From a virus (taxonomy: Duplodnaviria; Caudoviricetes): 64,000 nt of DNA. Position numbers and translations under genes: made by a program. Positions within the stretch are counted from its first letter, which is position 1; every line of letters begins with the position of its first letter. The notes beneath the pieces were generated by a model. It ran no database searches and was not told the origin of the DNA. It was given only the letters and a program-made list of their open reading frames with translations. The stretch is from positions 96,001 to 160,000 of IMG/VR virus record IMGVR_UViG_3300021400_000034; one strand, 5' to 3'. Positions 44,496-44,624 of the stretch are shown here, piece by piece.

Positions 44496-44624
44496 GAGAT
44501 TCTAACAGCAGAACGGTCTGTAAAACCGTTGGCTTTCGCCTTCGCAGGTTCGAATCCTGTCCACCTCCATACGAGGAGGTGTGCCCGAGCTGGTCAAAGG
44601 GGACGGTCCGCTAAAATGAATCTC
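44496..44624 (+). ncRNA. ACAGCAG cassette 14 (circularly permuted tRNA-Tyr(GTA))
   Basis: GAGATTC/GAATCTC stem; 3' half 44513-44569 precedes 5' half 44575-44608. Confidence 0.85.

What the first reader, a model, noticed from the sequence alone, without database searches (positions are those of the whole stretch)
44496..44624. Circularly permuted tRNA-Tyr(GTA) with a 6-nt terminal redundancy
Seen: ACGGT-CTGTAAA-ACCGT, long variable arm, T-arm and CACCTCCA come first, then a 5-nt linker (TACGA), then GGAGGTG...GGGG-ACGGTC. ACGGTC occurs at both ends of the cargo (44513-44518 and 44603-44608), so the cargo is slightly more than one turn of a circle. Its sequence differs from the conventional Tyr gene at 39557. 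Inference: the redundancy suggests copying from a circular or tandem tRNA template, or allows strand exchange during maturation.
Basis: partly seen in the sequence, partly recalled or inferred. Interest (0 to 1): 0.85.

Follow-up and report, generated by a model that had tools for sequence, protein, structure and literature searches.

The report
Rotated tRNA-Tyr mimic on Ro60-type handle
A small RNA gene in a large cattle-gut phage spells a complete tyrosine tRNA in rotated order, clamped by a conserved end-stem; it is most likely a tRNA-mimicking partner RNA of the phage's Ro60-like ring protein, not a gene for a working tRNA.

Summary
Window 44496-44624 carries the 3' part of a bacterial-type tRNA-Tyr(GTA), a 5-nt linker, then the 5' part. 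ACGGTC (tRNA positions 27-32) occurs at both ends, and a 7-bp stem closes the whole. An independent sample's DNA assembly carries it letter for letter, so it is not an artefact.

It belongs to a family of "ACAGCAA-handle" cassettes. These lie on the gene strand beside DUF2828/DUF7788 genes in 73 of 80 phage loci (165 cassettes, against 6 on the other strand). My model of that protein matches Ro60/TROVE structures over its full length.

Permuted tRNA-Tyr cassettes of the same design occur in at least three lineages. Twice they sit 55-56 nt upstream of the Ro60-like gene. The duplicated anticodon-stem strand is kept in all three lineages. Compensatory changes favour pairing by the D-arm-side copy, and in this phage both pairings are equally stable.

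Best reading: a YrlA-like Y RNA with a new handle, a new protein family and a complete, closable anticodon arm. Maturation into a real tRNA through the phage's Rnl1 ligase is not excluded (about 10%).

Earlier notes of this scan on the same genome proposed the Ro60/Y-RNA reading for sister cassettes. I tested it independently here.

The parts
44496..44502 (+). P1, 5' arm of the closing stem (GAGATTC). It starts right after the CTA that follows tRNA-Trp.
   Evidence: It pairs with 44618-24. Six of the 7 P1 pairs change on both sides among 12 family members.
44503..44512 (+). 5' handle motif TAACAGCAGA (core ACAGCA at 44505-10), unpaired. Proposed protein-binding site.
   Evidence: The motif recurs about 12 times in this genome and 165 times on the gene strand of 80 DUF2828 loci.
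44513..44517 (+). Copy A of the anticodon-stem 5' strand (ACGGT, tRNA positions 27-31). It can close the anticodon loop.
   Evidence: Helix A is 86.7% paired across 12 members, and its top pair is unpaired in 4 of 12.
44518..44524 (+). Anticodon loop CTGTAAA (GTA at 44520-22).
44525..44529 (+). Anticodon-stem 3' strand ACCGT (positions 39-43). It is the shared partner of copy A and copy B.
44530..44543 (+). Long variable arm (stem 44531-33 with 44538-40), the hallmark of bacterial tRNA-Tyr.
   Evidence: ARAGORN cloverleaf of the rejoined sequence; helix 3.
44544..44560 (+). T arm GCAGG-TTCGAAT-CCTGT.
   Evidence: Helix 4 is 100% paired.
44561..44561 (+). Extra C between the T stem and the acceptor stem. 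It is absent from the cellular tRNA-Tyr genes compared.
   Evidence: It is kept in the relative L375.
44562..44569 (+). Acceptor 3' strand CACCTCC plus discriminator A73.
   Evidence: Helix 5 has 5 of 7 pairs with changes on both sides.
44570..44574 (+). Linker TACGA. With A73 it forms a 6-nt loop that closes the acceptor stem.
   Evidence: It is identical in L375.
44575..44581 (+). Acceptor 5' strand GGAGGTG. The predicted RNase P site lies 5' of G44575, by analogy only.
   Evidence: The analogy is to M. smegmatis YrlA (PMC4201824).
44582..44602 (+). U8-G9, D arm (stem 44584-86 with 44599-601) and G26.
   Evidence: All 3 pairs of helix 6 change on both sides.
44603..44608 (+). Copy B of the anticodon-stem 5' strand (ACGGT) plus C32. 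This is the 'terminal redundancy'.
   Evidence: Helix B is 96.7% paired and 3 of 5 pairs change on both sides. Changes of the 3' strand in L375 and L247 are compensated in copy B only.
44609..44617 (+). 3' handle motif, A-rich (CGCTAAAAT).
   Evidence: An A-rich tract lies before the 3' arm in the Tyr-type members. In some searches it was a criterion of the scan, so its presence there shows nothing further.
44618..44624 (+). P1, 3' arm (GAATCTC). It is followed by GTTCT and then tRNA-Leu at 44630.

Best explanation
The element is the gene of a small non-coding RNA of the Y-RNA type, closest to YrlA.

It has a constant 'handle': a 7-bp terminal stem, the unpaired motif (T/A)AACAGCA(A/G) on the 5' side, and an A-rich tract on the 3' side. 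This handle is the proposed docking site for the phage's Ro60-like protein (DUF2828 + DUF7788, genome 62822-64318). The variable module here is a full bacterial-type tRNA-Tyr written in rotated order. Its acceptor end is closed by a 6-nt loop, and the RNA's own ends emerge from the anticodon stem.

Shown here:
- the anatomy;
- covariation in every helix;
- the family's tight, strand-specific linkage to DUF2828 genes;
- the Ro60-like fold of that protein.

Inferred: the RNA is cut out of the tRNA-array transcript by the processing of the flanking tRNA-Trp and tRNA-Leu. It then folds into a tRNA-shaped body whose anticodon stem is made by the D-arm-side copy (copy B). The upstream copy (A) can alternatively close a genuine tRNA-Tyr anticodon loop. 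The 5-6 nt overlap therefore makes a two-state anticodon arm.

Inferred function: the RNP presents a tRNA-Tyr look-alike to enzymes that read, cut or mend tRNA. It would act as bait or guide in the phage's RNA-repair and counter-defence set (phosphoesterase, kinase, phosphatase, Rnl1, all next to the Ro60-like gene). By analogy with M. smegmatis YrlA, the 7-bp acceptor stem may be opened by RNase P and receive CCA.
For: 1. Anatomy and tRNA-Tyr identity of the rejoined sequence.

2. The protein. It matches Pfam DUF2828 (3e-27) and DUF7788 (9e-41). The AF2 model has pLDDT 82. The 12 best PDB matches are all Ro60/TROVE over the full length, with probability 1.00 and TM 0.33-0.57; they include Thermus phage phiLo Ro60 9kop/9l5y and Xenopus Ro 1yvr/1yvp. 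D, G and both S of the MIDAS motif DGSGS are invariant, and the middle G nearly so.

3. Linkage. 73 of 80 DUF2828 loci carry a handle cassette on the gene strand, against 6 on the other strand: 165 against 6 cassettes, or 226/Mb against 8/Mb, and against 17/Mb per strand in unrelated viral loci. A minimal cassette lies in the 5' leader of this phage's own gene.

4. Five of 5 other phages with a permuted-Tyr cassette encode the protein. The cassette lies 55-56 nt upstream on the same strand in two of them, 1.5 kb upstream in a third and 4.6 kb upstream in a fourth.

5. Covariation across 12 Tyr-type members: 91.7% of cells paired, 19 of 30 pairs changed on both sides, 0 of 500 shuffles as high, and 36-55% paired when the partners are slid.

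6. Copy B against copy A: 96.7% against 86.7% paired. The 27:43 pair is compensated only in copy B in L375 and L247. The two states both compute to -42.8 kcal/mol.

7. L260 and L261, homologues with the same body, lack copy A.

8. The Rfam YrlA model hits the tRNA-like core of the sister Thr cassette at 38 bits, E 9e-6.

9. Published precedent: YrlA RNAs are tRNA mimics encoded within 4 kb of Ro60 on the same strand, and one of them is cut by RNase P and receives CCA (PMC4201824). Phage Ro60 binds phage-encoded Y-like RNAs (PMC12135203).

10. A CCA-adding enzyme gene is present in this phage.
Against: - No binding, expression or end-mapping data exist. RNA contigs did not cover the element, which is uninformative.
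- Pfam TROVE itself is not detected in the genome.
- The published Ro60 motif GNCGAA is absent. The handle motif is a different one.
- Rfam YrlA does not hit this cassette.
- In this phage the cassette is 77 kb from the Ro60-like gene.
- A close relative (G001) lacks the cassette, and L375 has it at another place in the array, so it is dispensable or mobile.
- An intact anticodon loop, A73 and a perfect 7-bp acceptor stem are more than a scaffold needs.
- The covariation alignment was fitted to the model's structure, and several members are close kin.
Confidence: 0.65

Rival explanations
1. It is a true permuted tRNA gene. The handle brings the two ends together, an endonuclease trims both, and the phage's Rnl1 ligase (with its kinase and phosphatase) seals the anticodon loop. 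RNase P and 3' trimming plus CCA addition then open the acceptor loop, giving a working second tRNA-Tyr.
For: - The rejoined sequence is a complete tRNA-Tyr with A73, a G1-C72 pair, a long variable arm and the GTA anticodon with A37-A38. It is 86-88% identical to cellular tRNA-Tyr genes.
- Rnl1, a kinase, phosphatases and a CCA-adding enzyme are encoded by the phage.
- The overlap would let the second copy take over the stem after a cut.
- Relatives encode A73-CCA in the acceptor loop.
Against: - The same handle carries bare anticodon arms and other cargo that cannot become tRNA.
- The family tracks Ro60-like genes.
- The homologues L260 and L261 have no closed anticodon loop.
- There is an extra C between the T and acceptor stems.
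- There is no bulge-helix-bulge motif (read) and no RtcB.
- The phage already has a conventional tRNA-Tyr.
- To my knowledge, no cutting enzyme for such a precursor is known in bacteria or phages.
Confidence: 0.1
2. It is a two-piece tRNA-like RNA that acts on its own. RNase P opens the acceptor loop and CCA is added. The nicked but base-paired molecule is charged with tyrosine, and serves as a decoy or as a sensor of tRNA-Tyr-directed nucleases without needing the Ro60-like protein.
For: - A 7-bp acceptor stem is the feature that made M. smegmatis YrlA an RNase P substrate with CCA addition in vivo.
- A CCA-adding enzyme is present.
- Host defences that destroy tRNA-Tyr exist, and phages answer them with their own tRNA-Tyr (PMC11555353, PMC12673091).
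Against: - It does not explain the conserved handle or its linkage to DUF2828 genes.
- The extra C next to the acceptor stem may impair RNase P and synthetase recognition (inference).
- There is no experimental support.
Confidence: 0.1
3. It is decaying debris of a tandem tRNA-Tyr duplication or of recombination in a fluid tRNA array, and has no function of its own.
For: - The order 3' half, short spacer, 5' half, with an overlap, is what trimming two tandem genes would leave.
- The relative G001 lacks it, and in L375 it lies elsewhere in the array.
- AT-rich ORFs interrupt the array.
Against: - Three lineages keep the same design, with compensatory changes in P1, the acceptor, D and anticodon stems.
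- It is always framed by the handle.
- It is placed directly upstream of the Ro60-like gene in other phages.
- It is 85% identical to its counterpart in L375, and every difference in a stem preserves pairing.
Confidence: 0.05

Closest known systems
YrlA-type bacterial and phage Y RNAs with Ro60/Rsr (Rfam RF02553; Chen et al. 2014, PMC4201824)
   Same: - A terminal stem formed by the RNA's two ends.
- A tRNA-like module with T arm, D arm and variable arm, and an acceptor stem closed by a loop, which amounts to a rotated tRNA.
- Family members are encoded next to, and on the same strand as, a Ro60-fold gene that sits in an RNA-repair gene neighbourhood.
- A 7-bp acceptor stem as in M. smegmatis YrlA, which is cut by RNase P and receives CCA.
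   Different: - The protein is DUF2828/DUF7788. It has no Pfam TROVE match and resembles Ro60 by fold only.
- The handle motif is ACAGCAA plus an A-rich tract, not GNCGAA.
- The RF02553 model does not hit this element.
- The module keeps a complete anticodon loop, with a duplicated stem strand that gives two alternative pairings.
- The ligase nearby is Rnl1, not RtcB.
- This copy lies inside a tRNA array, 77 kb from the protein gene.
Thermus phage phiLo Ro60 with its Yrl1/Yrl2 RNAs (PMC12135203; PDB 9KOP, 9L5Y)
   Same: A phage-encoded Ro60-fold protein with phage-encoded stem-bulge-stem partner RNAs just upstream of its gene. It gives the best structural match of my model.
   Different: The phiLo RNAs carry the CGAA motif and are not described as complete tRNA mimics. 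Sequence identity of the proteins is about 14%.
Circularly permuted tRNA genes of the red alga Cyanidioschyzon merolae, some green algae and Thermofilum
   Same: The 3' half is encoded upstream of the 5' half, with a short linker at the acceptor end. The leader and trailer pair with each other.
   Different: Those genes rely on a bulge-helix-bulge motif, the archaeal/eukaryal splicing endonuclease and a circular intermediate. There is no such motif here, the setting is bacterial, there is no overlap in those genes, and the handle here is shared with non-tRNA cargo.
Two-piece (permuted) tmRNA genes (Rfam RF04321)
   Same: A bacterial or phage RNA with a tRNA-like domain encoded in rotated order.
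   Different: There is no mRNA-like tag reading frame. The only weak RF04321 hit in the region (14.9 bits, E 9.4) lies elsewhere, at 40634-40801.

Membership tests
YrlA / Y RNA (RF02553) | Scores at or above the Rfam gathering threshold (69 bits). | tested here: not met
   There is no YrlA hit on 44496-44624 even at E<=10. The sister Thr cassette 39057-39125 scores 38.2 bits, on the tRNA-like core only.
YrlA / Y RNA (RF02553) | A tRNA-like domain: T arm, D arm, variable arm, and an acceptor-like stem closed by a loop, with the RNA's ends leaving through the 'anticodon stem' position. | tested here: met
   all helices are present and covary, and the stem made by copy B is 96.7% paired.
YrlA / Y RNA (RF02553) | The Ro60-binding motif GNCGAA(N)G near the 5' end. 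| tested here: not met
   The motif is as described in PMC4201824. Here the 5' side reads TAACAGCAGA, and the family consensus is ACAGCAA.
YrlA / Y RNA (RF02553) | Encoded within a few kb of a Ro60 (TROVE) gene, on the same strand. | tested here: inconclusive
   This copy is 77 kb from the gene. Same-design Tyr cassettes lie 55-56 nt, 1.5 kb and 4.6 kb upstream of DUF2828 genes, and 73 of 80 loci have a same-strand cassette. The protein has the Ro60 fold but is not a Pfam TROVE match.
YrlA / Y RNA (RF02553) | Physically bound by the Ro60 protein. | not testable with these tools
   This needs immunoprecipitation or a gel-shift assay.
Functional tRNA-Tyr (bacterial type II) | A contiguous cloverleaf that tRNA finders detect in the genomic order. 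| tested here: not met
   ARAGORN and Rfam tRNA find nothing at 44496-44624. Only the rejoined sequence is called tRNA-Tyr.
Functional tRNA-Tyr (bacterial type II) | No nucleotide between the T stem (65) and the acceptor stem (66). | tested here: not met
   An extra C sits at 44561. It is kept in L375 and absent from the cellular tRNA-Tyr genes compared.
Permuted tRNA genes (C. merolae / archaeal type) | The 3' half lies upstream of the 5' half and the two together make one cloverleaf. | tested here: met
Permuted tRNA genes (C. merolae / archaeal type) | The leader and trailer form a bulge-helix-bulge motif (3-nt bulge, 4-bp helix, 3-nt bulge) at the junction. | tested here: not met
   I read both strands after P1. 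No 4-bp helix flanked by staggered 3-nt bulges can be drawn. The predicted fold shows P1, an internal loop and the anticodon hairpin.
Permuted tRNA genes (C. merolae / archaeal type) | A circular RNA intermediate and a mature continuous tRNA. | not testable with these tools
   RNA contigs do not cover the element. Junction-spanning reads are needed.
Ro60/TROVE proteins (for the partner protein) | A HEAT-repeat ring plus a vWA domain with a MIDAS motif. | tested here: met
   There are full-length Foldseek matches to Ro60 structures. D, G and both S of DGSGS are invariant, and the middle G nearly so, in 44 homologues.
Ro60/TROVE proteins (for the partner protein) | Matches Pfam TROVE (PF05731). 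| tested here: not met
   There is no match in the genome even at E<=10. Sequence searches of the PDB find nothing.

The most novel reading that the evidence does not exclude
The overlap is a working switch in a maturation or repair pathway. The closed anticodon loop (copy A) is cut by a host or phage anticodon nuclease. Copy B then takes over the stem, and the phage's Rnl1 seals its end to the loop. With RNase P and CCA addition, this turns the rotated precursor into a continuous, nuclease-triggered spare tRNA-Tyr. This would be, to my knowledge, the first permuted tRNA gene matured by ligation in the bacterial or phage world.
Probability: 0.08. Interest if true: 0.9.

Novelty: new variant of a known kind. 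Interest (0 to 1): 0.62.

Why it matters
Ro60 with Y RNA is an old and poorly understood RNP. In bacteria, its tRNA-like YrlA partners have no known target.

This element belongs to a large class of phage Y-like RNAs for which I found no description in the paper library. They have a different handle and a different, Ro60-fold protein family (more than 7,000 homologues), and they sit beside Rnl1-type RNA-repair genes.

This member carries a whole tRNA-Tyr, anticodon included, with a built-in choice between two pairings. That makes it a concrete handle on what these RNPs recognise. tRNA-Tyr is a known target of anti-phage nucleases (Retron-Eco7; PMC12673091, PMC11555353). A tethered tRNA-Tyr look-alike therefore gives a directly testable idea: it may act as bait, sensor or repair guide.

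It also shows how a rotated tRNA can arise from tandem genes.

Tried and rejected
- Megablast of 43000-46000 against the phage collection found no match.
- A protein next to the array (45301-45900) found no relatives in viral contigs.
- Two loose DNA patterns in viral contigs returned mostly chance hits. Only L021, and possibly a few short cassettes, were useful.
- A single-sequence AF2 model of the DUF2828 protein was unusable, with pLDDT 42.
- Sequence searches of the PDB with the protein and with its profile found nothing.
- No RtcB was found in the genome.
- RNA-seq: contigs of three metatranscriptome runs cover only 44100-44273 of the laid stretch and none covers the cassette. This says nothing about expression.
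- A second helix (AGC with GCT, or AGCAGAAC with GGTCCGCT) between the handle strands looked possible in this copy. It is not kept in L375 or the other lineages, so I dropped it.
- A bulge-helix-bulge reading was tried by hand and does not fit.
- Integron attC, retron, small self-cleaving ribozyme and group I intron readings were considered from the motifs and set aside. No matching consensus was seen, there was no Rfam hit, and no reverse transcriptase came up in what I examined.
- Search for the 'source' tRNA: the 24-nt D-stem-to-variable-arm string occurs in tRNA-Tyr of 41 species spread over Deinococcota, Alphaproteobacteria, Dependentiae and others. It names no host.
- The weak tRNA-Sec hit on 44495-44568 (21.7 bits, E 1.1) is noise.

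Full report
**What is there**

The window holds a phage tRNA array: 33 ARAGORN genes at 35.5-44.7 kb and 34 Rfam tRNA hits. The 136-nt gap between tRNA-Trp (44421-44493) and tRNA-Leu (44630-44715) is filled by the element.

Reading searches gives this order:
- a 7-bp closing stem, GAGATTC (44496-502) with GAATCTC (44618-24);
- the unpaired string TAACAGCAGA;
- ACGGT-CTGTAAA-ACCGT;
- a long variable arm;
- the T arm;
- one extra C;
- CACCTCC plus A73;
- TACGA;
- GGAGGTG;
- the D arm and G26;
- ACGGTC again;
- CGCTAAAAT.

Rejoined at the overlap, it is an 85-nt tRNA-Tyr(gta) for ARAGORN. In genomic order nothing is detected.

The rejoined sequence is 73-75/85 identical to ordinary cellular tRNA-Tyr genes, but only 55/85 identical to the phage's own tRNA-Tyr at 39557.

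A DNA contig from a different sample covers 44100-44755 without a single difference. The arrangement is therefore not an assembly artefact.

**It is one of a family**

The same frame recurs about a dozen times in the array, with other cargo, and once outside it. The frame is a stem that changes sequence but keeps pairing, then (T/A)AACAGCAA, then cargo, then an A-rich tract, then the stem's second arm.

The copy outside the array is a minimal cassette in the 5' leader of a 498-aa gene at genome 62822-64318. Notes of earlier agents on this genome pointed me to that gene and to a Ro60/Y-RNA reading. I treated both as leads and tested them.

**The protein**

- Pfam TROVE is not found in the genome.
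- The gene matches DUF2828 and DUF7788.
- Upstream neighbours are a calcineurin-like phosphoesterase, a P-loop kinase, an NT5C-like phosphatase (weak match) and an Rnl1 RNA ligase.
- With an alignment of 44 homologues the AF2 model reaches pLDDT 82.
- Its 12 best PDB matches are all Ro60/TROVE proteins aligned over the whole length. They include the Ro60 of Thermus phage phiLo and Xenopus Ro.
- D, G and both S of the MIDAS motif DGSGS are invariant, and the middle G nearly so.

It is thus a Ro60-fold protein of a family that sequence models do not file under TROVE.

**Linkage of RNA and protein**

In 80 viral loci holding a DUF2828 gene, 73 carry at least one handle cassette on the gene's strand and 6 carry one on the other strand. 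That is 165 cassettes against 6. In 44 loci a cassette ends within 450 nt upstream of the start codon. The density is 226 per Mb on the gene strand, 8 per Mb on the opposite strand, and 17 per Mb per strand in 119 unrelated viral loci.

This is the arrangement by which bacterial Y RNAs were found: within 4 kb of Ro60, on the same strand (PMC4201824).

**Relatives of the tyrosine element itself**

A pattern search found the same design in seven other large phage contigs and, among metagenome contigs, in three more. Three lineages can be told apart:
- this phage with L375;
- the L243 group;
- L247.

All five contigs tested encode the DUF7788 protein. The Tyr cassette lies 55-56 nt upstream of that gene in L244 and L246, 1.5 kb upstream in L243 and 4.6 kb upstream in L247, always on the same strand.

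L375 is a patchy 72-96% relative of this phage. Its cassette is 85% identical to this one but sits at another place in the array. Another relative, G001, shares most of the array but has no Tyr cassette after tRNA-Trp. The element is therefore maintained as a unit, but it is movable and dispensable.

**The overlap**

Every Tyr-type member found through its anticodon loop has the 5' strand of the anticodon stem twice:
- copy A lies before the anticodon loop;
- copy B lies after the D arm.

The overlap is 5 nt in the distant lineages and 6 nt here and in L375.

The two copies are not equivalent:
- Where the 3' strand changed (ACCGT to ACCGC in L375; TCCGT to TCCGG in L247), only copy B carries the compensating change.
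- In most of the L243 group, copy B pairs by Watson-Crick throughout, while copy A has a G-U pair.
- On a model-guided alignment of 12 members, the structure with copy B has 96.7% of its stem cells paired and 3 of 5 pairs changed on both sides. With copy A, 86.7% are paired and the top pair fails in 4 of 12.
- The homologues L260 and L261, found by the covariance model without asking for an anticodon, keep the body and the copy-B stem but have lost copy A.

The tRNA-shaped core closed by copy B is therefore the constant architecture, as in YrlA.

Copy A is nevertheless kept complementary at positions 29-31 in all three lineages. It follows the U-A to A-U switch at 31:39 between them. In this phage it is a perfect match. 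The two states compute to the same energy, -42.8 kcal/mol each.

Sister cassettes with Thr-like cargo have no overlap. Their anticodon stem is split 2+3 or 3+2 between the two strands. The handle therefore enters the anticodon stem from the side in the whole class.

**Caveats**

- My searches for relatives required ACAGCA, CTGTAAA and GGTTCRA, so the invariance of those strings proves nothing.
- Several members are close kin.
- The alignment used for counting pairs was fitted to the structure.

**How it most likely works**

Shown:
- the fold-level anatomy;
- the covariation;
- the gene linkage;
- the Ro60 fold.

Inferred:
- The RNA is released from the array transcript by processing of its tRNA neighbours. 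The element starts right after the CTA that follows tRNA-Trp and ends 5 nt before tRNA-Leu.
- The handle binds the Ro60-like ring.
- The module imitates tRNA-Tyr towards tRNA-handling enzymes.
- The overlap lets the anticodon arm toggle between an open strand and a closed, authentic-looking loop.

The perfect 7-bp acceptor stem with A73 is the feature that made M. smegmatis YrlA a substrate of RNase P and of CCA addition. The phage has a CCA-adding enzyme. The L243 group even encodes A73-CCA in the acceptor loop.

tRNA-Tyr is degraded by Retron-Eco7, and phages counter this with their own tRNA-Tyr. The protein's neighbours are end-healing and sealing enzymes. I therefore favour a role as bait or guide in tRNA damage control, but this last step is conjecture.

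**Rivals**

- A genuine permuted tRNA gene matured by cutting and Rnl1 ligation is not excluded, at about 0.1. Against it stand the shared handle on non-tRNA cargo, the homologues without an anticodon loop, the extra C at 44561, the lack of a bulge-helix-bulge motif and of RtcB, and the presence of a conventional tRNA-Tyr.
- A free-standing two-piece, chargeable mimic is possible, at about 0.1.
- Mere debris of a tandem duplication is unlikely, at about 0.05, given the compensatory changes in every helix. A tandem-gene origin of the design is nonetheless plausible.

**Novelty**

The kind is known: Ro60 with tRNA-mimicking Y RNAs, including in phages. The variant is not:
- no paper in the library links DUF2828 to RNA;
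- the handle motif differs from GNCGAA;
- Rfam's YrlA model misses the element;
- a complete anticodon arm with a duplicated strand is not among the YrlA features described in PMC4201824.

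Noticed in passing
L001:6740-6792 (genome 62739-62791, outside the window): A minimal handle cassette (GAGATGG-TCACAGCAA...CCATCTCG) sits between a promoter-like site and the start codon of the Ro60-like DUF2828 gene. It may be a minimal partner RNA or an autoregulatory operator.
   Followed up: partly
L001:2080-6251 (genome about 58-62 kb): An RNA end-healing and sealing set lies directly upstream of the Ro60-like gene: a calcineurin-like phosphoesterase, an AAA_33/KTI12-type kinase, an NT5C-like phosphatase (weak match) and an Rnl1 ligase. 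This parallels the bacterial rsr-Y RNA-rtcBA operon, but with Rnl1 instead of RtcB.
   Followed up: partly
window 35497-44717: Most tRNA genes of the array are followed by CTA rather than CCA (seen in the repeat families). The phage encodes a CCA-adding enzyme at genome 118841-119227.
   Followed up: partly
window 38162-38944 and 39960-40589; L021:150-860: AT-rich ORFs interrupt the tRNA array at different places in this phage and in its relative G001. They look like homing-endonuclease insertions. I did not run them against Pfam.
   Followed up: no
window 41945-42018 and 43474-43533: Rfam calls a full tRNA at 41945-42018 that ARAGORN misses. It also calls a partial tRNA (model positions 7-64) inside the cassette 43431-43545, whose anticodon loop reads CACTATG.
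   Followed up: no
L273:3581-3665: A handle variant (GCAGCAA) is followed by only the 3' half of a tRNA-Tyr: anticodon arm, variable arm, T arm and acceptor 3' strand with ACCA. The next cassette follows directly. This may be a half-tRNA display or a decayed copy.
   Followed up: no
L375:6960-7092 (-) against window 44496-44624: The orthologous Tyr cassette lies between the counterparts of cassettes 43267-43348 and 43431-43545 in the relative, not after tRNA-Trp. Cassettes are therefore reshuffled within arrays as whole units, and both copies are preceded by CTA and followed by G.
   Followed up: partly
L243, L244, L246, L248, L249, L376 (acceptor stems): In the L243 group the second pair of the acceptor stem is a conserved mismatch (C-C or C-U), and the acceptor loop begins with A-CCA.
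   Followed up: no
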